64,000 nucleotides of DNA from an uncultured Clostridia bacterium (GTDB lineage Bacteria; Bacillota; Clostridia; Oscillospirales; Ruminococcaceae). Below the pieces are notes generated by a model that saw only the letters and a list, made by a program, of their open reading frames with translations, was not told where the DNA came from and searched no databases. A program made the position numbers and the translations under genes. Positions within the stretch are counted from its first letter, which is position 1. Every line of letters begins with the position of its first letter. Shown piece after piece: positions 3,376 through 64,000 of the stretch. The stretch is taken from contig CANRAS010000007.1 in NCBI GenBank assembly GCA_947628655.1, positions 1 through 64,000 of the forward strand. The letters are read 5' to 3'.

Positions 3376-5436
3376 TCAGCAACTGACAATTTTCTGAATA
3401 TCCTCTCTATAATCCCCGACGAGTTCCCCGCACTCAATAACCACATCGCCCATAGCGGACAGGGAAAGCGTGTTTATTTCCTCGTATACAAGTTCGGCGA
3501 ATATGTGGCGTTCATCGCAGAAACTGCGGACGTTGCCCTCTAGGAGCGCTTTCAGCACCTGTATGTGCGTATCCGTCAGACTGTTCGCAAACTCCCGCCA
3601 TTCGCCCGACAGCCCGCTGAACGCGGGGTTTTCCCGCGCCTGTTCCTGAAACACCTGCGGAGCGGGGTCAAGCGGGGAAAGTTCGCGCTTGCAGTCCTCT
3701 ATCATATTGGAAAAATCGTCGTCGCTTATCTTGTCTGCCACGGCGTGGAAGTTCTCCGTTTGCTCGTCGTCGATTATCAGTTTCCGCGCGGTTTCGTCGG
3801 ATTTTGCGCGTATGTCGGCGAGTTTTGATACGTCAATTTCCACTTTCGGCGCGGTGTAAGCAACAGTTTCGTCAACGCCCGCCGTCCGCTTTGGAGCGCG
3901 CTTTATGCCGTTGGCAAGGCAGTATTCATCGACCGCTTTCGGTATGATTTCCAAAAATTCGGGAGCGGACACCGCGTCGGTTAGTTTCGTGCGGTTTTGA
4001 AAATCATTCAGCGCCATTTTCAGATTTGCGGATATTTTTCGGCTATAGCCCGTTTTTTGGCGCAGTCTTGCCTCTACGCTTTTTAAAAGATAGCCGTTAA
4101 AGCCCTTGCACGGCGCAAAGCTGAACAGTTCAAGCGCGGGTTCGCCGCGTTTTTGGCAGTAAATCTCGCCCGCGCTTATCTTTACGGGGTGAAATCCGTC
4201 GGCGGCGTCAAGGTTAATAACAAGGTGCTGAAACGGTTTCCAGGTGTAGTCTTTTTTCAGCTTGCCGAAGATGATTGACGAAAGTTCAATCCCGCGCTGT
4301 TTGAAGTAAACTTCAAGCCCCATAAGCGCGGCTTTGCACGCGCCCTCCAACATCGGGCGCGTCTTTTCACTGTAAAACGCGCTCGACTTTATCGGATAAA
4401 CGGAATTTTCCGCGAGAAAGTTGAACTCGTCCGAAAAACGCTTAAATTCCGTATCGGGGAACTTTTCAAGTTCCGCGCCGCCGTGTTCGGAAATAACCGC
4501 GTTTATGTCGGGAAATTCGTCCTCTATGTCATTGAACGCGTAGAAATCTTTCAGCCAGCGCGGCATATATTCATCGAGGTACGGCGCGAAATTCCGACAG
4601 CCGTCCCAAGTCGCCAGCAGTTTGCGAAACGCGTCCGCAGAGCCGTCCACGCCGATTTTGTGGATAAGTTCACCGCAGTAGAGCATTACATACGGCTTGT
4701 CCGTTTCGCGGAACACTTCGCGCCGAACATCGGTGCGCCATGTGAAATATGTGCGCAGCTGCGAACGCGATAAACTCGCGTAAGTGACCTGTCCTACCCC
4801 GCAGAACGCCCTGCGCGGGAAATCGTCCTCAACATTAGCCATAAACTCGCCCTGTTCGTATTGCGTTATTTCAAACGCGCGTTTATAAACGCCGTTTTCG
4901 CGGACGCACATTTCAAGTTCCCGCATTTTGCGGATTTTATTCACCATATATTCGTCCTGTTCGGACAAATGTTCGGGAAGTGATTCGGGCGGAAAACCCG
5001 TTCTCTGCATTTCGGACGCGCGGATATATTCGCGCGTAGTATATTTGCTGTCAGGAATTTTCTCCGATTTGTAATCTTCCGCAATCACACGAACGCCCCA
5101 TTGTTCGTGACGGCTCGCGTCCTCAACGAACCGCGCCATTTCGTCAAGCTCTGCGGACACCTTTTTCGCGCTGACTTTTTCCGCAGACGCTGTTTCAGAA
5201 GGCTTGCGGTCGGGGATTTTTTCGGCTTTGTACGAAACTTCGGCGGATTTTTTTCTCGCGTCGCGAACGCTTTGTTTAACCGATTTGCGGACGTCGTCGG
5301 GTACAAACTGCGTCATATCGTCAATCACGGTATCGACGATATTATCGACCGCGTTTCCGACCATATCGTTTATGGCTTTTTTTATCTCCTCAATGGATTT
5401 CCCTGTTGTTTTGATAAACTTTTTAAATTCTCCCAT
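3376..5436 (-). CDS. large uncharacterised protein (686 aa), charged/coiled N-terminus; tentatively a TerB-N/TerB-C-like architecture; defence-associated by context
   Basis: Long clean ORF with normal codon usage and no recognisable catalytic motif. The C-terminal segment (..VLKALLEGN..EEINTLSLSAMGDVVIE..) is reminiscent of TerB-C. It lies immediately downstream of, and co-oriented with, the Abi_2 gene. Confidence 0.45.
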   Translation of the reverse strand: MGEFKKFIKTTGKSIEEIKKAINDMVGNAVDNIVDTVIDDMTQFVPDDVRKSVKQSVRDARKKSAEVSYKAEKIPDRKPSETASAEKVSAKKVSAELDEMARFVEDASRHEQWGVRVIAEDYKSEKIPDSKYTTREYIRASEMQRTGFPPESLPEHLSEQDEYMVNKIRKMRELEMCVRENGVYKRAFEITQYEQGEFMANVEDDFPRRAFCGVGQVTYASLSRSQLRTYFTWRTDVRREVFRETDKPYVMLYCGELIHKIGVDGSADAFRKLLATWDGCRNFAPYLDEYMPRWLKDFYAFNDIEDEFPDINAVISEHGGAELEKFPDTEFKRFSDEFNFLAENSVYPIKSSAFYSEKTRPMLEGACKAALMGLEVYFKQRGIELSSIIFGKLKKDYTWKPFQHLVINLDAADGFHPVKISAGEIYCQKRGEPALELFSFAPCKGFNGYLLKSVEARLRQKTGYSRKISANLKMALNDFQNRTKLTDAVSAPEFLEIIPKAVDEYCLANGIKRAPKRTAGVDETVAYTAPKVEIDVSKLADIRAKSDETARKLIIDDEQTENFHAVADKISDDDFSNMIEDCKRELSPLDPAPQVFQEQARENPAFSGLSGEWREFANSLTDTHIQVLKALLEGNVRSFCDERHIFAELVYEEINTLSLSAMGDVVIECGELVGDYREDIQKIVSC

Positions 5437-5527
5437 ATGCGCTCCATTAATTTTCTGTTTTAAGTAAAACAGTAAAGCGATTTCCGTCAGCGCGGTAAAG
5501 AGTGCGCGTTCACGTTACTTCCCCGAT

Positions 5528-8384: not shown

Positions 8385-8509
8385 AACAACACCCTTTCCG
8401 ACCCGCAGACAAACCCGCCCGCGCGTATTGTTTTCCGCTTTTAGATTATTATACCACATATTTCTTCGGTTGTCAATAATTGCACGGGACTAAAAGGCGG
8501 TGCTTTCGC

Positions 8510-8945
8510 AGTTTATAGTTAAGAGTGCACGCATTATCCGCTTCGCGGAAAACGCTGTGCATAGTATTAGGTGTCCGCCTACGGCGGACGGAAAGATTGT
8601 CTTTAAGTCAATACGCGCCTGCACTAGTGCATCTAGCCCGCGTTTTGCGCGGAGCGCAAAACAACGGCGCGTAAGCGCCGTTAATTCGCCGTCAGGCGAA
8701 TTGCGGGCGGTCGGGCAACGGCGCGTACACGGGCGGTGCAGGCGCGTTAATACGCAGGACGTTAAACTAACGCTTGATAAGGGAAAGGGGCGCTTGAATT
8801 GAGCCACGCCCCATACGCGCGATAATGCGAACAACGCTTTGACCCGCAGACAATCTAATAAGCGCCCGCTAGGGCGCAACTCTGTGCATACTATGCACAG
8901 CGTTTTCCGCGAAGCGGATAATGCGTGCACTCTTAACTGTAAACT
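8510..8945. repeat. pair of ~100 bp inverted repeats flanking ~235 bp (MITE-like, or head-to-head copies of the dispersed element)
   Basis: Left arm at about 8510-8610, gtttatagttaagagtgcacgcattatccgcttcgcggaaaacgctgtgcatagtat + hairpin gtccgcc-tac-ggcggac + ggaaagattgtcttt. Right arm at about 8845-8945 is its reverse complement, agacaatctaat + hairpin gcgccc-gcta-gggcgc + ..ctgtgcatactatgcacagcgttttccgcgaagcggataatgcgtgcactcttaactgtaaac. Confidence 0.65.
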
Positions 8946-9472
8946 GTTATTGAGCCACGCCAAACGCGCATTTAAAGCAGTAAGGCTATTTAGGACGGCG
9001 GGCGCGGGGTGGCTTTGGGTCACAGCGTTGCTCGTCGCGGTGGGCGTTTTCTCGCGCCCCTACTTCGCCCCGCAAGGGGCGAAGTCTGGGGCACTCGAAA
9101 ACGCGACGGTTTGCCGTCTGAAATTCGCTGTCGCGAATTTCCCCGCCTGTCGGCGGGCGTTTGGCTACGCCAAACAACGGCAAACCGTGAAGAGCCTGCT
9201 AAACCACTCTGGGTGGACACGGTGAGCGGACTGCCGCCGGCAGTCCGCTCACAATAACGTTGCATTAAACCAACCGTTCCGCGCACTTCGTGCGCTCCAC
9301 TAGGCGCAAGGGGAAAGCCCGCTATCCTTCTAGTAGCTAGAGATTAGAAGCTAGTTGCTAGAGTGTGGATTAGCACTTAAACCTTATCTTCTCTTACTTC
9401 TTACCTCTAACCTCTTACCTCTATAAGTACTAACTACTAACAACTATTCTCTAAATATTCTCTAAAAACTAC

Positions 9473-13476: not shown

Positions 13477-13552
13477 GGAATAGATGTTAGAAGTAAGAAG
13501 TAAGAGGTAAGCGGGCAATCCGCTTTGCGTATTGCCCGCTAACTACTAATAA

Positions 13553-14965
13553 CTATTCTCTAATCACTACACGCGCCTCGCCTAGCTCCCTATACGTCCT
13601 CGCAATTAAGCACACGGCGATTAGGAACGTCAGAATATCCGACGCGGGCATTGAGTACAGCACGCCGTCAAGTCCGAAGAATTTCGGAAGTATAAGTGCA
13701 AAACCTACGCCGAACACTATTTCCCTTATCATCGAAAGCAGAGTTGACGACAGCGCCTTGCCCATGGCTTGAAGAAAAATAAAGCACGCCTTGTTTACAC
13801 AAGCGAAAATTATCATACAAAGATAAACGCGGAACGCTCTCACGGCGAAGTCCGTGTAGTATGCGCTTTCGTTCGCCGCGCCGAATATGTTTATAAGCCC
13901 GTGCGGGAAAAATTCCGCTATAACAAGCGCTATCGCGCCTACAATTGCCTCTGCCGCAAGAAGTTTTGTGAACAGTTCCTTTACGCGGTTTCTCTTTTCA
14001 GCGCCCATATTAAAGCCGACTATCGGAATACAGCCCGCCGCCATTCCTACTACTATTGAAATTACTATTTGGAAGAATTTCATCACTATGCCGACTACCG
14101 CCATAGGAATTTGCGCGTACTGTTCCTGTCCGAAAATGTTGTCCAAAGCGCCGTATTTCCTTATCATATTGTTTATCGCCGCCATAGCCGCAACGAGAGA
14201 TATTTGCGATAAAAAACTTGTTATTCCCAAAGCGAGAGTTTTACGGCAGATTTCCGCGCTTAGTTTAAAGTCCTCCGCGCGCGGCTTTACAAGTTTCATG
14301 TGAACAATATACCGCACGGCGAGCGCGGCGGTCACTATCTGTCCCAAAACGGTCGCGACAGCGGCGCCCATCATTCCCCATTTGAAAGCAAATATAAACA
14401 AGGGGTCGAGTATAATATTGACCACCGCGCCTGCAAGCGTTGACGCCATAGCAAATTTCGGACTGCCGTCCGCGCGGATAATCGGGTTCAGCGCCTGACC
14501 GAACATATAAAACGGTATTCCTATAGTGATATAAAAGAAATATTCACGCGACAGTCTGTAGGTTTCTTCGTTTACCGTGCCGCCAAACATTGAGATTATT
14601 TGGTTAGAAAAAATAAGATAAACAGCGCAAAGCACAAGACCGCCGATTATCACGATAACAACGGAATTTCCAACGCTTTTTCGCGCCTTCTCGGGGCTGT
14701 TTTTCCCCAAATTAATGCTGATAAACGCGCAAGCCCCGTCGCCTATCATCACGGCAACCGCAAGCGCTATTACAGTCAGCGGGAACACAACGGTGTTCGC
14801 GGCGTTCCCGTAAGAGCCGAGATACGACGCGTTAGCTATGAAAATCTGGTCAACGATATTGTAAAGCGCGCCTACAAGCAACGATACAATGCACGGCAGA
14901 GCGTATTTTTTCATAAGCCTGCCAATGCGTTCTTCCCCCAAAAAACTGTTTGCTGTATTTTCCAT
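13553..14965 (-). CDS. MATE family efflux transporter
   Basis: N-terminus ..RIGRLMKKYALPCIVSLLVGALYNIVDQIFIAN is typical of MATE/NorM; 12 TM helices. The start is probably the internal Met (MENTANS). Confidence 0.8.
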   Translation of the reverse strand: MENTANSFLGEERIGRLMKKYALPCIVSLLVGALYNIVDQIFIANASYLGSYGNAANTVVFPLTVIALAVAVMIGDGACAFISINLGKNSPEKARKSVGNSVVIVIIGGLVLCAVYLIFSNQIISMFGGTVNEETYRLSREYFFYITIGIPFYMFGQALNPIIRADGSPKFAMASTLAGAVVNIILDPLFIFAFKWGMMGAAVATVLGQIVTAALAVRYIVHMKLVKPRAEDFKLSAEICRKTLALGITSFLSQISLVAAMAAINNMIRKYGALDNIFGQEQYAQIPMAVVGIVMKFFQIVISIVVGMAAGCIPIVGFNMGAEKRNRVKELFTKLLAAEAIVGAIALVIAEFFPHGLINIFGAANESAYYTDFAVRAFRVYLCMIIFACVNKACFIFLQAMGKALSSTLLSMIREIVFGVGFALILPKFFGLDGVLYSMPASDILTFLIAVCLIARTYRELGEARVVIRE

Positions 14966-15813: not shown

Positions 15814-15910
15814 ATCTCCGTTTATCAAGTAGATAATAACTTAATAACCATATGAGAAGGATCGCATCATATCAGTTTACAGCGCAAAGTTAAGAGTAAA
15901 TAGTATACAA

Positions 15911-15948
15911 CCGCTCCCTCGCCGTAGGTGGGGGGAGCGGTTTTGTGT
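15911..15948 (+). terminator. rho-independent terminator after the GNAT gene
   Basis: Stem ccgctccc...gggagcgg followed by ttttgtgtt. Confidence 0.5.
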
Positions 15949-16127
15949 TAAAACAGCTTTGACTTCTATATCTTACCTCTTACAGGGTTATCCGCAAAAC
16001 GGATAACTTGCTAACCTCTAATAGCGCTACTCTATTCATACTATTTACTCAACACTATTACCTGTAAACTGATGACGGCGGGGAGGGCGCTTGAAAATTG
16101 TTTTTGCGGAATATTTTTAAAAAGCGG

Positions 16128-16170: not shown

Positions 16171-16330
16171 AATGTATAAACTCTTATGGCGGTTTCCTCG
16201 CCGTGCTAAAATGGGAATTATAAGAGATGCAGCCCTAGCAGGATAAATAATTGGGAGCGATAAAAGACGGGAGCCCTACCGGTATAAACAAATGGGAGCG
16301 ATTAAAGTCGGGATGCCCTACCGTGCAAAG
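16171..16330 (+). ncRNA. type III antitoxin RNA (ToxI-like): ~3.5 imperfect tandem repeats of 40-41 nt
   Basis: Repeats aatgggaattataagagatgcagccctagcaggataaat, aattgggagcgataaaagacgggagccctaccggtataaac and aaatgggagcgattaaagtcgggatgccctaccgtgcaaagc, plus a degenerate leading copy. They lie between a promoter and a terminator immediately upstream of toxN, which is the canonical type III arrangement. Confidence 0.65.
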
Positions 16331-16394: not shown

Positions 16395-16943
16395 ATGAAA
16401 CGCCCATTATTAGATTTATATTATGTAGATATGAAATATGTCCGGGAACTGCATAACGCCGATGACAATGTAATGTCGGTTTCTCCGCAGACAGGAAAAG
16501 CGGCACGCCCGTTTTTGGGATTGGTTATTGTTATGGAAACAAAGAAATATTGTATACCTTTGACTTCACCCAAAAAAGACAAGTTTAAAAGCAAGTCAAG
16601 AGTTGACTTTATCAAAATTCCCGACCCAAAAAGAAAAGATGAACACGGGGCGGCTTTAACTATCGGAATACTAAACTTAAACAATATGATACCCGTGTCG
16701 GAAAACGTCATTCAAAAAATAGATTTATCCAAATCAACAACTTTTAATAGGGATTTGTTGATAAACGAGTTAAAATGGTGCAGAGATAATTTTGATGTTA
16801 TATCAAACAGGGCGAATAAGCTGTACACCAAAATCACGCTGTTCCCCGACAAAGACCGAAATTTAACCCGCCGCTGCTGTAATTTCAAGAAACTTGAACA
16901 AGTTCTTGAAAAATATCTTAATAAAATGGCGATACATACTTAA
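16395..16943 (+). CDS. toxN: type III toxin-antitoxin system endoribonuclease toxin, ToxN/AbiQ family
   Basis: Aligns to Pectobacterium ToxN. FLGLVIVMETKKYCIPLTSPKK matches FIGIVLEIQGHKYLAPLTSPKK, GILNLNNMIPV matches GLINLKFMIPI, and the C-terminal ..CNFKKLEQVLEKY.. matches ..CDFSLLEEKY... 182 aa. Confidence 0.9.
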   Translation: MKRPLLDLYYVDMKYVRELHNADDNVMSVSPQTGKAARPFLGLVIVMETKKYCIPLTSPKKDKFKSKSRVDFIKIPDPKRKDEHGAALTIGILNLNNMIPVSENVIQKIDLSKSTTFNRDLLINELKWCRDNFDVISNRANKLYTKITLFPDKDRNLTRRCCNFKKLEQVLEKYLNKMAIHT

Positions 16944-17160
16944 AGTATCAATAGCCGTTTTCCCCGCCTGTTATCAGTTTACAGGGCTCAGTGCAAAGTA
17001 TTAAACCCTCTCCCCGCCGTGAGCGGGGAGAGGGCGCGCTTTTTAGCGTGTCAACGCAACGACCCGCAGGTCTTACCTCGAAAGTTGCGCCACAAAGGCT
17101 AGTGTGGATAGAGGCATTTGTTAAGCATGTGGCGCAACTTTGACTTCTTACTTCTTACTC

Positions 17161-18510
17161 CTATTCATCTTCCTTGGGCAATCTTCGATATAAACTAAAA
17201 TACATCGTAACAAAGCACGCCAGACCGCCTAAAACGTTGGAAATGGGTTCGGCGGTGAATACCCCGTCCGCGCCCATACCTACGCGCGGGAGAATTAACG
17301 TCAGGGGAACGACTATTATCGCTTTCCTCAAAAGCGAGAAGAATATCGCGCGCTTTGTACAGCCAAGCGCCGTAAAGGACGACTGCCCCGTAAACTGGAG
17401 CGCCATAAAGCAAAATCCGAAGAAATATATTCCCAGCGCGTGCGACGCCGCCTCTATCATCTCTTTGTCCGATGTGAATACCGACACGATAACGTGCGGG
17501 AACGCGAGTACCAAAAGCCACGCCGCGACGGTATAGATAATTCCTACGCAAGCCATAAAGAATATTCCGCGGCGCACGCGCGTAAATTTTTTCGCTCCGT
17601 AATTGTAGCTTATTACGGGCTGTGAACCTCCCGTAAGCGACTGAATGGGCAGTGTGAAAATATCGCGGACGGAATTAAGCACGGTCATTATTCCGACATA
17701 CAAATCCCCGCCAAATTCGCGTAATGTTGACGTGCAGGCGACTTGCACCATACAGTTCGTTCCCTGCACGATAAATCCCGAAAGTCCGAGCGAGGTTATC
17801 TTTCCGATTGTCGCACCGTCAGGGATAAGATTTGATTTTCTGATATGATAAAGCGTTTTCTTCCCAAAGAAAAACGACACAGCCCACGCGGCGGACACCG
17901 CTTGACTTATGACGGTCGCGAGCGCGGCGCCCTCAATCCCTAAACCGAACACAAATATAAATATCGGGTCGAGAATTAAATTCATAGCCGCGCCGATAAA
18001 TATTGTCAGCATTCCCGTCCGCGGGAAACCCTGCGCGTTAATAAAGCCGTTAAGTCCCGTTGAGAGCATTGAAAACGTCGTGCCGAGCAGGTAGATTTTA
18101 AGATAACTGTCGGCGTAGAAATACGATGTGTCGCTTGCTCCGAACAGATACAGTACAGGTTTTCTGAAAATAAGGCACACCGCGCAAATCAGCACGGAAC
18201 TCACAGTCAGCAGCATAAACGACTGCCCCAAAATATGTTCGGCTTTCTTTTCGTTCTTAGCGCCTCTTGCAATTGAAAACAACGGTGTACCGCCCTGTCC
18301 GAACAGATTAGTAAACGCCGCGACAAGGCTTGTAAGCGGGAACGCGAGACCTATTCCCGTAAGCGCAATACTTCCTATATCGGGCAAATGACCGATATAA
18401 ATTCTGTCAACGACGTTATAAAGGAGTTGTACAAGCTGAGCGAACAGCAGCGGTACAGACTGCGCGACGATATTCTTCCACACAGCCCCCTGTGAGAAGT
18501 CGTTTTTCAT
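17161..18510 (-). CDS. MATE family efflux transporter
   Basis: N-terminus ..WKNIVAQSVPLLFAQLVQLLYNVVDRIYIGHL is typical of MATE. The likely start is MKNDF after RBS AAGGTGA; the ORF track starts 9 nt earlier at a GTG. Confidence 0.8.
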   Translation of the reverse strand: MKNDFSQGAVWKNIVAQSVPLLFAQLVQLLYNVVDRIYIGHLPDIGSIALTGIGLAFPLTSLVAAFTNLFGQGGTPLFSIARGAKNEKKAEHILGQSFMLLTVSSVLICAVCLIFRKPVLYLFGASDTSYFYADSYLKIYLLGTTFSMLSTGLNGFINAQGFPRTGMLTIFIGAAMNLILDPIFIFVFGLGIEGAALATVISQAVSAAWAVSFFFGKKTLYHIRKSNLIPDGATIGKITSLGLSGFIVQGTNCMVQVACTSTLREFGGDLYVGIMTVLNSVRDIFTLPIQSLTGGSQPVISYNYGAKKFTRVRRGIFFMACVGIIYTVAAWLLVLAFPHVIVSVFTSDKEMIEAASHALGIYFFGFCFMALQFTGQSSFTALGCTKRAIFFSLLRKAIIVVPLTLILPRVGMGADGVFTAEPISNVLGGLACFVTMYFSLYRRLPKEDE

Positions 18511-18589
18511 GGCTGTCACCTTGGTTTTATTGGATTTATTAAGTTAATTATAGCATATTTTGAGAGTGTTGTCAATGCAGTTGCTAGAG

Positions 18590-18740
18590 AATAGTAGCTA
18601 GTAGCTAGTTTTGGGCACGGAAAGATTGTCTTTGAGTTAAGAGGTTGATTTTCTAGGGAAAAGCGTTCCCCCGCTCGTACGGCGGGGAGGGCGCGTGTTT
18701 ATTTTACCTGCGACGGTTGAAACTCTTACCTCTTACATCT
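18590..18740. repeat. dispersed intergenic element copy (..tagttttgggcacggaaAGATTGTCTttgagttaagagg.. + hairpin cccccgctcgtacggcgggg + cttacctcttac motifs)
   Basis: Shares the AGATTGTCT core and the ccccgcNNNNNgcgggg hairpin with other copies. Confidence 0.6.
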
Positions 18741-20101
18741 TACTTCTTGCCTCTGTTAGCAAGCCCCGTAACTCCATACTCCACCCGTATATTATCCCCT
18801 GTATACAATCGGTTGAAGTCGTTGATGACACGCTCGGCTACCATATCGCCGTTTACGGAGTTCGCATCCATAAGTATAACTATCATCTGGCGGTTGGAAT
18901 AGCGCGTTGAGATGTCTGAACGGCGCAGGGACGAAACTATCGACTGTTCGAGAAGTTTCATAGCCTGCTCCGCCTCCGCGGGGTCGGGGTTCGCGTTCGG
19001 GTTCTCGCTTATCGTGAACAGCACCGTCTGAACGTCGCGCCCGCTCCGCTCCACAAAACGCTGAATAAAGTTATATACGTTGTTAAATCCCTCAAAATCA
19101 AGCTGATACGCGCCTTTGCCCTTGTCCGCGCTGTTCATAAGTTCGTTTAAATGCTCTAGGTCAACCGCCTTGCGCGCAGGCTCTGCGGAGTTTTTACTGC
19201 TGAAGAAGTGACACGCGTCTTTGCCGTTCTGCTTTACATAGTAAAGAGCCTTGTCCGCCGCGTTTACGAGTTTTGAAAACTCACTGCCGTCCTCAGGCAC
19301 GGTCGCTATGCCGATTGATACGGTCGCGGTAAACTTGCCCTCGCCCGCTTTCGCCTTAATGCCGTCAAGAATTGCGTTCGCCTTGTCGCGAAGTTCGGAT
19401 TTGTCCGTCTTGTCCTTTATGAACATCACAAACTCGTCGCCGCCTATTCTGCACAAAACATCGCCGTCTGCGGAGTTTTCGCGCATAACGTCCGCCGCTG
19501 TTTTCAGCGTCTTGTCGCCCTCTATATGCCCGAACTCGTCGTTTATTCTCTTGAAATTGTCAATGTCAATCATCAACAGCGAACCCAAAAGTCCGAGTTT
19601 CAGCATCGAGTTTACGGCGTTTTCGGTGTAATCCCTGTTCCACAAGCCCGTCAGCAAATCGCGGTGTATCTTGCTCTTTGTATCCGAAACCTCGCGCACT
19701 TTCTGTTCGAGCCTGTCGGCTAATTTTTTGCGCAGTTCGGAAAGTTCAAGCACCCGTGCTATGCGCGACAGCATAACGGCGGGAACGAACGGTCTGCCGA
19801 TAAAATCCACTGCGCCCTCGTCAAAACAGCGCGTTTCCGTGTCGGAATTATTGTCGCCTGTTAAGAAAATCACGGGCGTCTGACGGTGCTTTTTTATCTG
19901 CCGAATACGACGCAAAAGTTCAAACCCGTCTATATCGGGCATATTTACATCAAGCAGTATAACGTCGCAGTCGCCGTTTTCGAGATAAGACAGCGCCTGC
20001 GTTCCCTTTTTCACAGGAATGACCTTATATTTTTCACTCAAAATCCCCCGCAAAGTCGAGAGGTTCACATTATCGTCATCTACCGCCAATATAGTATTCA
20101 T
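18740..20101 (-). CDS. response regulator with a GGDEF diguanylate cyclase domain (REC-GGDEF plus a ~150 aa C-terminal region of unknown function)
   Basis: REC motifs (ILAVDDDNVNL.., DVILLDVNMPDIDGFELL). GGDEF domain with RDLLTGLWNR, FKRINDEFGH and an intact GGDEF site (CRIGGDEFVMF). Confidence 0.85.
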   Translation of the reverse strand: MNTILAVDDDNVNLSTLRGILSEKYKVIPVKKGTQALSYLENGDCDVILLDVNMPDIDGFELLRRIRQIKKHRQTPVIFLTGDNNSDTETRCFDEGAVDFIGRPFVPAVMLSRIARVLELSELRKKLADRLEQKVREVSDTKSKIHRDLLTGLWNRDYTENAVNSMLKLGLLGSLLMIDIDNFKRINDEFGHIEGDKTLKTAADVMRENSADGDVLCRIGGDEFVMFIKDKTDKSELRDKANAILDGIKAKAGEGKFTATVSIGIATVPEDGSEFSKLVNAADKALYYVKQNGKDACHFFSSKNSAEPARKAVDLEHLNELMNSADKGKGAYQLDFEGFNNVYNFIQRFVERSGRDVQTVLFTISENPNANPDPAEAEQAMKLLEQSIVSSLRRSDISTRYSNRQMIVILMDANSVNGDMVAERVINDFNRLYTGDNIRVEYGVTGLANRGKK

Positions 20102-46639: not shown

Positions 46640-46800
46640 CGCAACGTAATAACTAAAAGACAATCTTTCCGCGCACGAAGTGCGCACCTTAGGGTAATCC
46701 GCAAAGCGGATTACTCGCTAACTACTAACTACTATTCTCTAGCTACTGCGCGACCACGCGCTCTTACCTCTTACCTCTAACATCTTACCTCTTACAGCCT
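46640..46800. repeat. dispersed intergenic element copy (aaAGACAATCTttccgcgcac-gaag-tgcgcac, aatccgcaaagcggatt hairpin, ctaactactaa / ctattctctag / cttacctcttacc motifs)
   Basis: Lies between the murE start and the PBP stop. Confidence 0.6.
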
Positions 46801-58429: not shown

Positions 58430-58685
58430 TTAACTCCTATAGGTGGATTTAGTAGTAGTTAGAGAATAGTTGTTAGTAGTTAGTTTTGGTGCGCCCTACG
58501 GGCGCGATTAGATTGTCTTTTAGTCCAGAGGTTGACACACTAGGGTAAAAGCCACACCTCCTGCGAGGTGCAGGGGCGTATTAGTCCGCAGACAATCTTT
58601 CTTGTTCCCCCGCAGGGGGAACACCTAAACTAATAACTAACTACTATTCTCTAACTACTTATAAACTCCAACTTTCCTAACGAAT
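58430..58685. repeat. dispersed intergenic element copy with two AGATTGTCT/AGACAATCT cores
   Basis: gcgccc-tac-gggcgc + gATTAGATTGTCTttt at about 58495-58520, and ..tccgcAGACAATCTttc.. at about 58585-58600; tagttagagaatag motifs. Confidence 0.6.
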
Positions 58686-60079: not shown

Positions 60080-60703
60080 ATGGATAACAAAGAACTGTCT
60101 GCAAAGGTATGGAGCAACATTGAAAAAAGCAAGAGAAAAGCGGCGAAGTTTGAAGATAACGTTATCGTTTCTTTCTCGCTGATTTCCGAAAAGAATGACG
60201 ACGATCTTTATGTTGCGGTCATCAACGGCGAACTTTCCGTTATGCCGTATCGCTACAACGAGTACGGCTGCGAAATCGAGGCGTCGGCGGAAACCGTAAA
60301 CAAGCTGTTTTCGGGCGCGCTTTCATTCGATAAGGCTCTGAAAGACGGCATGGCTGTTGTTAAGGGCGGCGATGTTGCTAAGTTCAAGGCTCTGGAGTGC
60401 CTTGTTCCCGCGAAGAAAACTGCGGCTAAGAAGTCTGCTGCTAAGACTGCCGCAAAGAAAACCACGGCTAAAAAGTCAGCAACTAAGACTTCCGCAAAGT
60501 CTACCGCGAAAAAGACCGCAAAGCCCGCTGCGAAACCCGCTGTTAAAACTCCTGCGGCGAAACCTGCGGTTACTGAAAAGCCCGCTGCAACGGCTGCAAA
60601 GCCTGCTGCTCCCGCAGCTAAACCCGCAGCACCTGCAACAAAGCCTACTGCTACAACAACTAAGCCCGCAGCGCCCGCTGTTAAGCCGACTGTTAAGAAG
60701 TAA
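60080..60703 (+). CDS. SCP2 (sterol-carrier-protein-2-like) domain protein fused to a ~100 aa histone-H1-like AKK/KPAA repeat tail
   Basis: SCP2-like N-terminal domain (..YVAVINGELSVMPYR.., ..GMAVVKGGDVAKFKALE). C-terminus: PAKKTAAKKSAAKTAAKK..KPAAKPAVKTPAAKPA... RBS AAGGAGG. Confidence 0.6.
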   Translation: MDNKELSAKVWSNIEKSKRKAAKFEDNVIVSFSLISEKNDDDLYVAVINGELSVMPYRYNEYGCEIEASAETVNKLFSGALSFDKALKDGMAVVKGGDVAKFKALECLVPAKKTAAKKSAAKTAAKKTTAKKSATKTSAKSTAKKTAKPAAKPAVKTPAAKPAVTEKPAATAAKPAAPAAKPAAPATKPTATTTKPAAPAVKPTVKK

Positions 60704-61690: not shown

Positions 61691-61760
61691 CGGCGGGGCA
61701 ATTTGTCTTTTTAACCCGTTCCCCGCCACAGGCGGGGAACCGCCTTTTTACTATTCCGGC
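61691..61760 (+). terminator. two tandem rho-independent terminators
   Basis: gcccccgccgtcggcggggc + aatttgtcttttt, then gttccccgcc-aca-ggcggggaac + cgccttttt. Confidence 0.75.
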
Positions 61761-61764
61761 GTTT

Positions 61765-61838
61765 TCCGCGTAGCGGATAATGAGCGTTTTCCGCGTAGCG
61801 GATAATGAGCGTTTTCCGCGTAGCGGATAATGCGTACA
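61765..61838. repeat. 3x tandem 25 bp repeat (gcgttttccgcgtagcggataatga), continuous with a dispersed-element arm
   Basis: Direct reading; the third copy runs into ..gcgtacactcttaactgtaaactgatgacggcgggg. Confidence 0.8.
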
Positions 61839-62339: not shown

Positions 62340-63368
62340 ATGAAAATTTTGTTGTCCGTTATCGCGGGTTTCTGCGCGGTGTTTCTGATGATAAATCCGA
62401 AAGTTGTTTCCGAAACGATACGCGTTTCTTCGGTAAGCTGCCTTGAAGTTATCGTGCCGAGCCTGTTCGCGTTTACCGTGCTTGCAATTTATCTGCAAAA
62501 AAGCGGACTGTATCGGTATGCTTTGAAACCATTGACTTTCCCTTTATCAAAAATCCTGCGAATGGACGAGGAACTCTGCGCGGTCTTTGTTCTGGCGAAC
62601 ATCGGCGGTTATCCCGTCGGCGCGAAACTGCTCTCGGAACTCGTGCGGCAGGAACGGCTTTCCGCAAATGACGCGGGAAGAATGATGTGCTTTTGCTTTG
62701 GGAGCGGTCCGGGCTTTATGATCGGAATAATCGGAATGAAGATTTTCGGCAGCGCGGCGGCGGGTATTACCCTGTTCGGCGTGAGTTTTGCCGTGTCGCT
62801 GCTTATTGCGGGATTTATGCGGACACGAGGAAATTACGAACTGAAACCCGCCGAAAACCGCTTTGAACTTACCACGGACAGTTTCATTTCATCGGTTGCT
62901 GACGCGGCGCGGGTAATGTTTACCGTATGCGCGATGATAGTCGGGTTTTCGGCAATCTCGGCAATTTTACGGGAAATCGGCGTTTACAGTCTGTTCAGCG
63001 AAATATTCGGCACGGGAGAAATTTTCCCCGCACTTCTCGAAGTTACGAGAGCCGCCGAAATTCCGCTTTCGGAACACTCTCTGCCGTTCTGCGCGGCATT
63101 GCTGGCGTTCGGCGGAGTGTGCGTTCTTATGCAGATAGCCGCGCTTGCTAAAAATATTCCGCTTAAAAGTTTTTTAATCTCACGAGTACCCGCGGCGTTT
63201 CTCTGCGCGGTAATCTCCACACCCCTTGCAAGCCGTTTCGAAACAATTCAGACGCTTTCGGGGAACGCAGTCGTAACGCCGTTCACAAAGAACGCCGCGC
63301 TGTCCTTGTGCGTTATCGCGATGAGCTGTTTGTTGCTTGTGGGGAAGAAAGAGAATTACACGAGGTAA
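62340..63368 (+). CDS. nucleoside-recognition/Gate-domain membrane protein, sporulation YlbJ-like
   Basis: Polytopic protein; the ..ELCAVFVLANIGGYPVGAKLL.. and ..MCFCFGSGPGFMIGIIG.. regions resemble YlbJ/spore-maturation Gate domains. Immediately follows the previous gene (4 nt gap). Confidence 0.45.
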   Translation: MKILLSVIAGFCAVFLMINPKVVSETIRVSSVSCLEVIVPSLFAFTVLAIYLQKSGLYRYALKPLTFPLSKILRMDEELCAVFVLANIGGYPVGAKLLSELVRQERLSANDAGRMMCFCFGSGPGFMIGIIGMKIFGSAAAGITLFGVSFAVSLLIAGFMRTRGNYELKPAENRFELTTDSFISSVADAARVMFTVCAMIVGFSAISAILREIGVYSLFSEIFGTGEIFPALLEVTRAAEIPLSEHSLPFCAALLAFGGVCVLMQIAALAKNIPLKSFLISRVPAAFLCAVISTPLASRFETIQTLSGNAVVTPFTKNAALSLCVIAMSCLLLVGKKENYTR

Positions 63369-63422
63369 GGGGCGAGGGGGCGCAGTAGCTAGAGAATAGA
63401 GGCTAGTAACTAGTAAATGTTT

Positions 63423-63690
63423 AGGGCAGGCGGGCAGGCTGCGGGCAGGCTGCGGGCAGGCTTTGGGGCAGGCAAATTTGGCTTAACACCGCCGTTTGGG
63501 CAGGCTTTTGTTGTTTTTTATATATTCTAAGAAGTTTTTTAATTACACACAAAACAAATGCAAATCTATGCACTAAAAAAGTATAAGGAATTTGGCAAAA
63601 TAGCCCGCCAGCCTGCCCAAACGGCATAACAATGCGGGTTCAAGCCTGCCCGCAAGCCTGCCCGCAGCCTGCCCAAAGCCTGCCCTTGAC
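63423..63690. repeat. ~270 bp imperfect palindrome: 6x GGGCAGGC direct iterons (9-11 bp period), then ~100 bp AT-rich core, then 6x GCCTGCCC iterons
   Basis: Left array gggcaggc x6 at about 63423-63506. Right array gcctgccc x6 at about 63605-63690, which is the reverse complement. The flanks gccgttt/aaacggc are also inverted. The core is ttttgttgttttttatatattctaagaagttttttaattacacacaaaacaaatgcaaatc... Confidence 0.8.
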
Positions 63691-63699
63691 CTGCACTCT

Positions 63700-63835
63700 T
63701 AACCCGCAAAAACACCCCGCCGTCGGCGGGGCGTATTAATTAAAAGACAATCTAATCCGCGCGCGGAGCGCGCACATTATACTGTGCACTGTGCACTGTT
63801 AACTGTAAACTGCGGAAGAATGCTCCGCGCCCTTA
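63700..63835. repeat. dispersed intergenic element copy (hairpin ccccgccgtcggcgggg + aaAGACAATCTaatccgcgcgcggagcgcgcacattatactgtgcactgtgcactgttaactgtaaactg)
   Basis: Read on the reverse strand it is TTTACA-N22-TATAAT, then a 15 bp hairpin, then GGATTAGATTGTCT, then a terminator-like hairpin with a U-run. Confidence 0.6.
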
Positions 63836-63846
63836 TCAAGCACCCT

Positions 63847-64000
63847 CTAAAACGTTTTGTTCCCTTTAGCCGCGGCGCGTATCTCCATAACGCCCGTTTC
63901 GGGGTAGAAAAATTGTGTGCGCCCGTAGTCAAGTCCGACATCTTCCGCGAGTATCGGGATACGGTTTTCGCGCAGGAACTTTCTTACCGCCTCTAAGTTG
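63847..64000 (-). CDS. 3' end of a minus-strand CDS running off the window (..ILAEDVGLDYGRTQFFYPETGVMEIRAAAKGNKTF*)
   Basis: Open frame to the window edge with plausible codon usage; product unknown. Confidence 0.3.
   Translation of the reverse strand, partial: NLEAVRKFLRENRIPILAEDVGLDYGRTQFFYPETGVMEIRAAAKGNKTF

What the first reader, a model, noticed from the sequence alone, without database searches (positions are those of the whole stretch)
63423..63690. Large palindromic iteron array (6x GGGCAGGC, AT-rich core, 6x GCCTGCCC) in a 3'-3' intergenic region
Six direct 8-9 bp iterons lie on each side in inverted orientation. Their 9-11 bp periodicity matches one helical turn. They flank a ~100 bp AT-rich core. 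This architecture is typical of plasmid or phage replication origins (iterons plus a DNA-unwinding element), or of dense regulator-binding arrays. It lies between convergent gene ends, so it is not a simple promoter. The G-runs (GGGCAGGCTGCGGGCAGGCTGCGGGCAGGC) could also form G-quadruplexes on opposite strands of the two arms.
Basis: seen in the sequence. Interest (0 to 1): 0.6.

Follow-up and report, generated by a model that had tools for sequence, protein, structure and literature searches.

The report
Orphan origin-like palindromic repeat cassette
Between two converging operons on the chromosome of a gut Oscillospiraceae bacterium lies a strain-specific, non-coding cassette built like a phage or satellite replication origin (two opposed sets of GGGCAGGC sites around an AT-rich centre), but it has no initiator gene and is not the origin of any replicon.

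Summary
The array is real. There are six exact GGGCAGGC on the + strand and five exact plus one 6/8 copy on the - strand. Spacing is mirrored (8/10, 11, 11, 12, 32/33 bp). The copies flank a 105-bp centre of 26.7% GC. The window holds 13 copies against 1.2 expected.

The genes on either side do converge: a 342-aa membrane protein gene and cheD, the last gene of a flagellar operon. The setting is core chromosome. No Rep, initiator or integrase gene lies within 62 kb upstream or 10 kb downstream, and GC skew does not switch. A sister species with the same gene pair has only a 49-bp terminator there. Another strain diverges 25 bp before the array. The cassette is therefore accessory DNA, and dispersed species-specific repeat modules lie on both sides of it.

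Between the two arms the 8-mers are conserved (46/48 positions) but the spacers are not (19/36; p=3e-6). This points to sequence-specific protein recognition.

In temperate gut phages the same 8-mer at the same 11-bp period, next to AT-rich DNA, lies inside a lambda-O-like initiator gene, where by analogy with lambda it would be the origin iterons. Shuffled-motif controls show that this match could be chance.

Best reading (about 0.35): an orphan, origin-like protein-docking cassette. Rivals are a MITE/mosaic repeat, a hairpin insulator and an invertible switch. The G-quadruplex idea is weak.

The parts
62340..63368 (+). Upstream flanking gene: a 342-aa multi-pass membrane protein with no Pfam hit. 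It follows a DUF3792 gene, and its stop codon is at 63366-63368.
63372..63414 (+). Module A: a CTAG-rich dispersed intergenic repeat (gcgcagtagctagagaatag...). Strain L271 stops matching at 63399, inside this module.
   Evidence: other copies at 9332, 13540, 18577, 46723, 58454, 58629
63424..63505 (+). Left arm: six exact GGGCAGGC units (starts 63424, 63432, 63443, 63454, 63466, 63498), 69.5% GC.
63491..63506 (+). Inner extended site GCCGTTTGGGCAGGCT. It is a perfect 16-nt inverted partner of 63610-63625.
   Evidence: I7
63506..63610 (.). AT-rich, non-symmetric centre: 105 bp at 26.7% GC. It holds one weak sigma-70-like match (TGGGCA-18-TATATT, 9/12). No convincing ORF and no Rfam family.
63610..63625 (-). 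Inner extended site on the right arm (AGCCTGCCCAAACGGC on the + strand).
   Evidence: I7
63611..63695 (-). Right arm: five exact GGGCAGGC units read on the - strand, plus a degenerate outer unit GTGCAGGT (63688-63695). 64.7% GC.
63709..63737 (-). Canonical hairpin terminator (CCCCGCCG-n-CGGCGGGG). On the - strand the stem is followed by TGTTTTTG, so it most likely ends the flagellar/che operon just before the array.
   Evidence: (I16)
63738..63813 (+). Module B: a dispersed intergenic repeat (aagacaatctaatccgcgc...gcgcacattatactgtgcac...ttaactgtaaactg). It includes a 7-nt ACTGTGC tandem repeat.
   Evidence: 80% match to 113-196
63847..64000 (-). 3' end of cheD, the last gene of the fliP...flhA-sigD-flgG-cheC-cheD operon. 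The gene continues beyond the end of the window.

Best explanation
The array is an accessory, non-coding cassette of about 275 bp. It entered, or grew in, the short terminator spacer between two convergent chromosomal operons of one Oscillospiraceae lineage. Its working parts are the twelve GGGCAGGC units. I infer that they are recognition sites for a sequence-specific DNA-binding protein, probably of winged-helix type, that is encoded somewhere else. Candidates are a prophage, a satellite or the host itself. Because the units repeat every 11 bp, with the inner unit three turns away, the bound proteins would line one face of each arm. The two arms point towards each other, so the two protein arrays would converge on a 105-bp centre of 26.7% GC that is easy to bend or melt. 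This is the design of SaPI-type and phage O-type origins, so the cassette is best described as an orphan, origin-like docking site with no initiator gene of its own. Shown: the anatomy, the selective conservation of the 8-mers, the accessory status and the absence of an initiator nearby. Inferred: that a protein binds, which protein it is, and what follows from binding (firing, titration or silencing).
For: (1) Eleven exact copies lie in 262 bp against about 1.2 expected per 64 kb.
(2) Between the arms the 8-mer positions are 46/48 identical but the spacers only 19/36 (Fisher p=3e-6). Spacing is nevertheless mirrored: 8/10, 11, 11, 12, 32/33. Selection therefore appears to act on the motif and its phasing rather than on hairpin complementarity. 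Simple slippage would have copied the spacers as well.
(3) The centre is 26.7% GC and the arms are 65-70% GC.
(4) Published SaPI origins have 6-12 short iterons, an AT-rich centre, half the iterons on each side, and the two halves pointing in opposite directions (PMC9371898).
(5) In about 30 temperate gut-phage contigs, GGGCAGGC repeated 4-7 times at exactly 11 bp and followed by AT-rich DNA lies inside a 161-172-aa HTH_36 protein. That protein is homologous to 'replisome organizer / DnaD-like loader / replication protein O', and its gene sits just upstream of a primase-helicase gene. L208 shows the same module, and L240 shows part of it, with its contig ending before any helicase gene.
(6) Homologues of that protein at 55% identity are encoded in Ruminococcus genomes, which NCBI places in the same family. 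They carry a different repeat in the equivalent linker, suggesting that iteron and binding domain co-vary.
(7) The cassette is accessory. A sister species has the same gene pair with only a 49-bp hairpin spacer, and another strain diverges at 63399.
Against: No candidate binding protein was identified. No initiator, Rep or HTH_36 gene lies in the window or in the 10 kb beyond it. The shared 8-mer with phage origins may be coincidence: two shuffled 8-mers at the same spacing also hit viral contigs (5 and 1 loci), some of which look like iteron arrays. The GGGCAGGC phage has 44% GC and its host flank about 40%, against 50% for this chromosome, so it probably infects another species. Phage arrays are one-sided and coding, not palindromic. 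This genome carries other intergenic palindromes and short-period repeats, so a process that generates repeats without any function could explain much of the structure. All evidence for this exact cassette comes from one lineage.
Confidence: 0.35

Rival explanations
1. The array is a non-autonomous mobile element or mosaic repeat (MITE- or BIME-like). The ~85-bp arms are terminal inverted repeats that carry multiple binding sites for a transposase or recombinase encoded elsewhere. The cassette has no function for the host and sits in a harmless 3'-3' spacer.
For: It is present in some genomes and absent in others. It is missing between the same two genes in a sister species, and no array lies in the 409 nt sequenced after the divergence point in strain L271. 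Dispersed species-specific repeat modules lie on both sides of it. The window holds three other small elements bounded by inverted repeats: 8509-8946 with a 59-nt repeat at 98%, 58448-58665, and 15871-16073. The right edge shares GTTAAGAGTGCA with the ends of that family. Multi-site ends are established for Tn7, Mu and Tn5053-type transposons (my own knowledge, not tested here).
Against: GGGCAGGC clusters occur only once in about 74 kb. No clear target-site duplication exists; the only candidate is a 4-bp TAAC (read from the sequence). No similar DNA was found in the phage or plasmid collections. No transposase is known. A 12-nt match to another module is about what chance gives in 64 kb.
Confidence: 0.25
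2. The array is a structural element. As RNA or extruded DNA it folds into a very long hairpin that ends or processes the transcript of the 342-aa gene and insulates the two convergent operons from each other.
For: The strand folds with dG -85 kcal/mol as DNA, z = -8.8 against shuffles. Its position is exactly where relatives have a bidirectional terminator hairpin. The 342-aa gene has no canonical terminator before the array. Unrelated genomes carry GGGCAGGC/GCCTGCCC hairpins with repeated arms that look like expanded terminator stems, namely L034, L042 and L150.
Against: The spacers between arms are not complementary (19/36) while the 8-mers are conserved; a stem under selection would show the opposite. 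The loop is 105 nt and no U-tract follows either arm. A separate canonical terminator already sits at 63709-63737.
Confidence: 0.15
3. The array is an invertible DNA switch (inverton). A recombinase encoded elsewhere flips the AT-rich centre between the perfect 16-bp inner inverted repeats. This redirects a promoter to run antisense into either the flagellar operon or the membrane-protein gene.
For: A perfect 16-nt inverted pair directly flanks a 103-bp segment (I7). That segment contains one sigma-70-like match.
Against: All four assemblies show one orientation. No recombinase gene lies within the roughly 72 kb examined. A 103-bp segment is very short for inversion (my own knowledge). The promoter match is weak (9/12) and no more frequent than in shuffles. 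This model leaves the ten outer units unexplained.
Confidence: 0.06
4. The array is a working replication origin of a plasmid, phage or island, or the chromosomal origin or terminus.
For: Iterons plus an AT-rich centre, and the analogy with SaPI and phage O-type origins.
Against: The neighbours are core chromosomal genes. No initiator gene lies in cis. GC skew is negative on both sides. The array is absent from the sister species.
Confidence: 0.04

Closest known systems
SaPI / PICI replication origins (Staphylococcus aureus pathogenicity islands)
   Same: Six to twelve short iterons, an AT-rich region at the centre, half the iterons on each side, and the two halves pointing in opposite directions. 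The iterons are bound by the winged-helix domain of the initiator (PMC9371898). The array here has 6 + 6 units around a 105-bp centre of 26.7% GC.
   Different: The SaPI ori lies immediately downstream of its own pri-rep genes, on an excisable island. Here no rep gene, integrase or island is present. The units are 8 bp at an 11-bp period rather than 5-6 bp. The host is an Oscillospiraceae bacterium, not Staphylococcus.
Lambda-type origins inside the O / replisome-organizer gene, here in temperate gut phages (L141, L278-L281, L208, L240)
   Same: The same 8-mer GGGCAGGC, the same strict 11-bp period, 4-7 copies, and an AT-rich stretch directly following. The protein is homologous to lambda O and DnaD-like loaders and is followed by a primase-helicase gene. 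Homologues of the initiator occur in Ruminococcus genomes.
   Different: Phage arrays are one-sided, lie in coding sequence and sit next to their initiator. The chromosomal array is palindromic, non-coding and orphan. No sequence similarity extends beyond the repeat itself. Shuffled-motif controls show that sharing an 8-mer can happen by chance.
Plasmid R1 parC-type partition centromere
   Same: Two blocks of 11-bp-period repeats flank a short AT-rich core region, and a small DNA-binding protein coats the repeats (my own knowledge; not tested here).
   Different: All parC repeats are direct, they flank the parMR promoter, and they sit next to parM and parR. Here the blocks are inverted, no par genes are present, and the site lies between two gene ends.
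MITEs and BIME/REP mosaic elements
   Same: Small, non-coding and bounded by inverted repeats. It is located in an intergenic spacer, varies between strains, and is surrounded by other dispersed repeat modules.
   Different: The array motif is single-copy in about 74 kb. No target duplication and no known transposase were found. The arms consist of a phased, perfectly conserved 8-mer.

Membership tests
Iteron-type replication origin (plasmid, phage or PICI) | Several phased copies of a short repeat (iterons) | tested here: met
   11 exact and 1 degenerate GGGCAGGC at an 11-bp period
Iteron-type replication origin (plasmid, phage or PICI) | An adjacent AT-rich unwinding region | tested here: met
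   105 bp at 26.7% GC between the arms
Iteron-type replication origin (plasmid, phage or PICI) | A cognate initiator gene next to or overlapping the iterons | tested here: not met
   No Rep, O-like, DnaD-like or HTH_36 gene from 62 kb upstream to 10 kb downstream. tblastn with the phage initiator hits only the repeat.
Iteron-type replication origin (plasmid, phage or PICI) | Carried on a plasmid, phage or excisable island | tested here: not met
   Neighbours are the dcw/ftsZ cluster, polyamine genes and a flagellar operon. No integrase was found. No match in the plasmid or phage collections.
Iteron-type replication origin (plasmid, phage or PICI) | Supports initiation of replication | not testable with these tools
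   Needs marker-frequency analysis or a replication assay
Chromosomal oriC or terminus | A GC-skew switch, with dnaA/dnaN or Ter/dif features nearby | tested here: not met
   GC skew is negative on both sides. There is only a local blip where four genes lie on the + strand.
MITE / TIR transposon | Terminal inverted repeats | tested here: met
   Arms of about 85 nt; 42 nt at 90% and 16 nt at 100% complementarity
MITE / TIR transposon | A target-site duplication at the ends | tested here: inconclusive
   Only a possible 4-bp TAAC near ill-defined ends (sequence). No empty site is available for comparison.
MITE / TIR transposon | Multiple dispersed copies in the genome | tested here: not met
   One cluster in the window plus 10 kb. 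The whole genome was not available.
Inverton (invertible promoter) | Both orientations present in the population, and a recombinase | tested here: not met
   Four assemblies share one orientation and no recombinase is nearby. Read-level data were not available.
Intrinsic (bidirectional) terminator | A GC-rich hairpin with a short loop, followed by a U-tract | tested here: not met
   The loop is 105 nt and no T-run follows either arm. A separate canonical terminator lies at 63709-63737.
G-quadruplex motif | Four G3+ runs separated by loops of 1-7 nt | tested here: not met
   0 matches with loops up to 7 nt. With loops up to 8 nt there are 2 on the left arm and 0 on the right; with loops up to 12 nt there are 2 and 1. 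A G4-aware MFE fold picks hairpins.
Known RNA family (Rfam 15) | Reaches a family's gathering score | tested here: not met
   No family reaches its gathering score anywhere in the window. The only hits are sub-threshold matches to plant miRNA hairpin models.
parC-type partition centromere | Adjacent parMR or parAB genes and a promoter between the repeat blocks | tested here: not met
   No par genes in the neighbourhood and only one weak promoter-like match

The most novel reading that the evidence does not exclude
The cassette is a chromosomal mimic of a phage origin. It would be a rep-less, double-sided array of the iterons used by lambda-O-type initiators of temperate Oscillospiraceae phages. 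When such a phage or a satellite expresses its initiator, the twelve chromosomal sites would either soak it up (a non-coding anti-phage decoy) or fire in place, amplifying the flanking chromosome for transduction. A laboratory precedent exists: plasmids carrying part of ori-lambda (iterons ITN3-4 are required) together with the oop gene exclude rep-lambda phages (PMC3349717). I know of no natural chromosomal element of this kind.
Probability: 0.1. Interest if true: 0.8.

Novelty: new variant of a known kind. Interest (0 to 1): 0.4.

Why it matters
If a protein made elsewhere binds this cassette, it is a natural example of origin-like DNA separated from its initiator and parked in a core chromosome. 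That bears on how phages, satellites and hosts compete for replication initiators. It also bears on whether short non-coding DNA alone can act as a phage decoy or as a hijacked origin. If instead it is only a mosaic repeat, it is a useful warning: iterons plus an AT-rich centre, the signature that origin-finding programs look for, can occur in accessory chromosomal DNA with no replicon attached. In either case this genome carries an unusually rich, species-specific set of intergenic repeat modules that has not been described.

Tried and rejected
(1) I scanned the species-representative genomes for three GGGCAGGC units with 0-4-nt gaps. A tighter pattern would have been better.

(2) A viral scan for the inner 16-mer GCCGTTTGGGCAGGCT gave 15 hits, all single chance occurrences inside genes.

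(3) blastn of the 478-bp intergenic region against the phage and plasmid collections found no match.

(4) Rfam returned only sub-threshold plant miRNA hairpin hits, which reflect the long inverted repeat.

(5) ORFs inside the cassette (68 aa and 49 aa on the - strand) were rejected. They have no ribosome-binding site, they run through the repeats, and the gene callers did not call them in L001.

(6) Chi-like, uptake-sequence and REP-like readings were rejected because the 8-mer is not enriched elsewhere: 2 other exact copies, and 489 against 450 +/- 23 with up to 2 mismatches.

(7) A simple inversion between strain L271 and the window was rejected. The shared module is only 74% identical while the adjacent gene is 98.5% identical, so these are paralogous repeat copies.

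(8) A literature search for the motif returned only primers and unrelated sequences.

(9) I ran no further search on translations of the cassette, because the gene callers had ignored these ORFs.

Full report
**The observation**

GGGCAGGC occurs exactly six times on the + strand (63424, 63432, 63443, 63454, 63466, 63498). It occurs exactly five times on the - strand (63611, 63644, 63656, 63667, 63678). A sixth, outer right-arm unit is degenerate (GTGCAGGT, 63688-63695). The whole window has 13 exact copies against 1.18 expected, and no shuffle reached 13.

Start-to-start spacing is 8, 11, 11, 12, 32 bp on the left and 10, 11, 11, 12, 33 bp on the right. The two arms therefore mirror each other, the period is 11 bp, and the innermost unit sits three helical turns from the rest. 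The innermost units belong to a perfect 16-nt inverted pair, GCCGTTTGGGCAGGCT. The centre (63506-63610) is 105 bp at 26.7% GC; the arms are 69.5% and 64.7% GC. The sequence is identical in four independent assemblies, so it is not an assembly artefact.

**The surroundings**

A contig of the same strain (L001) extends 10 kb past the end of the window. The array lies between the stop codon of a 342-aa membrane-protein gene (63368, + strand) and the stop of cheD (63847, - strand). cheD is the last gene of a fliP-fliQ-fliR-flhB-flhA-sigma-flgG-cheC-cheD operon. The rest of the window is core chromosome: mraZ to ftsZ, polyamine synthesis, sensor kinases and a ToxN toxin gene.

No replication initiator, relaxase, integrase or partition gene is present. 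GC skew is negative both before and after the array. The only positive stretch is where four small genes lie on the + strand. Named relatives of the flanking protein are Oscillospiraceae MAGs, and one is labelled Lachnospiraceae; the nearest other species is 72% identical.

**The cassette is accessory DNA**

In the 72%-identical sister species (L253) the same two genes converge with only 49 bp between them, and that spacer is a simple hairpin terminator. More distant relatives have other neighbours and no array.

A second strain of the same species (L271; 98.5% DNA identity across the flanking gene) matches the window up to 63399 and then diverges. What follows is a different arrangement of repeat modules and a different downstream gene, with no array in the 409 nt available.

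The DNA on either side of the array belongs to dispersed repeat modules. Module A is CTAG-rich (63372-63414). Module B runs from 63738 to 63813 and adjoins the terminator hairpin at 63709-63737. Both recur at several other intergenic sites in the window. Neither was found in the sister-species loci.

The window also holds three other small intergenic elements bounded by long inverted repeats: 8509-8946, 58448-58665 and 15871-16073. It has several short-period tandem repeats as well. This genome clearly builds and tolerates intergenic palindromes.

**Evidence that the 8-mers are recognised as sequence**

I aligned the left arm against the reverse complement of the right arm, unit by unit. The 8-mer positions are 46/48 identical. 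The spacers are only 19/36 identical, yet the spacing is preserved (Fisher p = 3e-6). Recent slippage would have copied the spacers too. A stem kept for pairing would show complementary spacers. The pattern fits selection on the motif and its helical phasing, which is how arrays of protein-binding sites behave.

The strand can fold into a very stable hairpin (dG -85 kcal/mol as DNA, z = -8.8). That follows from any inverted repeat of this size.

**What such arrays do elsewhere**

A scan of viral contigs for the motif found about 30 related temperate phage contigs of 43-45% GC. In them GGGCAGGC is repeated 4-7 times at exactly 11 bp and followed by AT-rich sequence. The repeat lies inside the 3' part of a 161-172-aa gene. 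That protein has an HTH_36 domain. It is homologous to proteins annotated as replisome organizer, DnaD-like helicase loader and lambda replication protein O. A primase-helicase gene comes next. The phages also carry an integrase, CI/Cro-like repressors and a terminase.

It is established knowledge that lambda's origin iterons lie inside the O gene. By that analogy these repeats are origin iterons. One more distant phage contig (L208) has the same order of ERCC4 nuclease, small protein with array, then helicase. Another (L240) has the nuclease, a small protein and the array, but its contig ends before any helicase gene.

Homologues at 55% identity are encoded in Ruminococcus genomes. They carry a different repeat in the same linker. 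Length variants differ by 11 aa, which equals three repeat units.

Separately, published SaPI origins have 6-12 short iterons, an AT-rich centre, half the iterons on each side, and the halves pointing in opposite directions (PMC9371898). That is the layout seen here.

**Limits of the phage link**

The search was for this very motif, so finding it is biased. Two shuffled 8-mers at the same spacing also hit viral contigs (5 and 1 loci), and some of those look like iteron arrays. Sharing an 8-mer with some phage origin is therefore not clearly beyond chance.

The GGGCAGGC phage and its host flank have 44% and about 40% GC, against 50% for this chromosome, so it probably infects another species. 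No similarity extends beyond the repeat itself. The phages show what this class of array does. They do not show that this cassette is their target.

**Conclusion and rivals**

My best reading (about 0.35) is an orphan, origin-like docking cassette. A protein encoded elsewhere would bind the phased 8-mers on both arms and converge on the easily melted centre. The consequence of binding is unknown.

- A MITE- or mosaic-repeat reading (about 0.25) is supported by the presence/absence pattern and the repeat-rich setting. It is weakened by single copy in about 74 kb and by the lack of a clear target duplication.
- A hairpin insulator or terminator (about 0.15) fits the position but not the spacer pattern. 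A canonical terminator already stands at 63709-63737.
- An inverton (about 0.06) would use the perfect inner repeats. However, all assemblies show one orientation, no recombinase is near, and the promoter match is weak.
- A working origin of a replicon (about 0.04) conflicts with the context.
- The G-quadruplex idea fails the canonical motif test, and a G4-aware fold does not favour it.

**Novelty**

Nothing here is a member of a described family. No Rfam family, plasmid or phage sequence matches. The defining feature of iteron origins, an initiator gene in cis, was tested and not met. It works like a known kind of element, an iteron origin, but lacks its partner gene, so I rate it a new variant of a known kind.

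The most novel reading not excluded is a chromosomal mimic of a phage origin that titrates or is hijacked by a phage initiator. There is a laboratory precedent in lambda (PMC3349717). I put its probability at about 0.1.

Noticed in passing
window 9391-9422, 18723-18754, 46761-46795 (also about 13480-13510 and 17140-17170): (CTCTTAC)n 7-nt tandem arrays. Read on the strand of the neighbouring gene they are (GTAAGAG)n, placed right after that gene's stop codon. This puts TAA in all three frames and creates repeated GAGG motifs. They are species-specific, and their function is unknown.
   Followed up: partly
window 9332-9361, 13540-13575, 18577-18609, 46723-46759, 58450-58484, 58629-58659, 63383-63415: A CTAG-rich module with a 7-nt period (tagctagagaatagtagctag), dispersed through intergenic regions. 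It often lies between a terminator and the next promoter. It was not found in the sister-species loci.
   Followed up: partly
window 8509-8946: A 59-nt inverted repeat at 98% complementarity flanks a 320-bp GC-rich, hairpin-rich centre. The arms end in CAGTTTATAGTTAAGAGTGCAC. Related single ends (..actcttaactgtaaactg) sit just upstream of promoters at about 190, 60800 and 61850. No Rfam match.
   Followed up: partly
window 58448-58665 and 15871-16073: Two more small intergenic elements bounded by inverted repeats (49 nt at 84%; 36 nt at 81%). One lies between speD and a lysine/ornithine decarboxylase-type gene. The other lies upstream of the ToxN locus.
   Followed up: no
window 16231-16322 and 16395-16943: A ToxN_toxin-family gene (PF13958) is preceded by a 41-nt tandem repeat of 2.2 copies. 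This is the layout of a type III toxin-antitoxin system (ToxIN/CptIN-like).
   Followed up: no
window 61759-61832: A perfect 25-nt x 3 tandem repeat (GCGTTTTCCGCGTAGCGGATAATGA), each unit holding a small hairpin. It lies in a 415-bp non-coding stretch upstream of the DUF3792 gene. Single copies of the unit occur at about 8530 and 8900.
   Followed up: no
window 60080-60703: A 207-aa protein with an SCP2-like N-terminal part and a Lys/Ala/Pro-rich tail like histone H1/HC2, encoded partly by 42-nt coding repeats. It is conserved in position in sister species.
   Followed up: no
L141 6096-6581; L278 6001-6519; proteins P0122, P0134, P0174, P0197: In the phage O-like initiators the iteron array is translated as the linker. 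Copy number changes in steps of three units (161 vs 172 aa; 4 vs 7 GGGCAGGC). Subfamilies with different N-terminal domains carry different repeats, suggesting that iteron and binding domain co-vary.
   Followed up: partly
L250, L251, L252 (sister species carrying P0010), at about 5039-5152: In many samples the contigs end within 26-114 nt after the orthologous gene's stop codon. At least two different sequences follow it. The junction downstream of this gene therefore looks like a strain-variable hotspot in that species too.
   Followed up: no
L271 1292-1495 (- strand): In the strain that lacks the array at this junction, the downstream gene encodes a small protein with a hydrophobic N-terminus and a CxxC...CxxC zinc-ribbon motif. 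This gene is absent from the window and from L001.
   Followed up: partly
L034 1-90, L042 7225-7340, L150 7300-7620: Unrelated genomes (a Bacteroidales MAG, a Gemmatimonadales MAG and a high-GC viral contig) carry hairpins whose arms are tandem GGGCAGGC/GCCTGCCC units with short loops. They look like terminator stems expanded by slippage.
   Followed up: no
L245 about 5130-5456: A repeated intergenic unit of about 200 bp (..tttttcgacccgcctaagtcagcaac..ggctctctcaaaaatttcctgcgtctatattgtgttgctataac..) lies downstream of the 50%-identical homologue in another metagenome.
   Followed up: no
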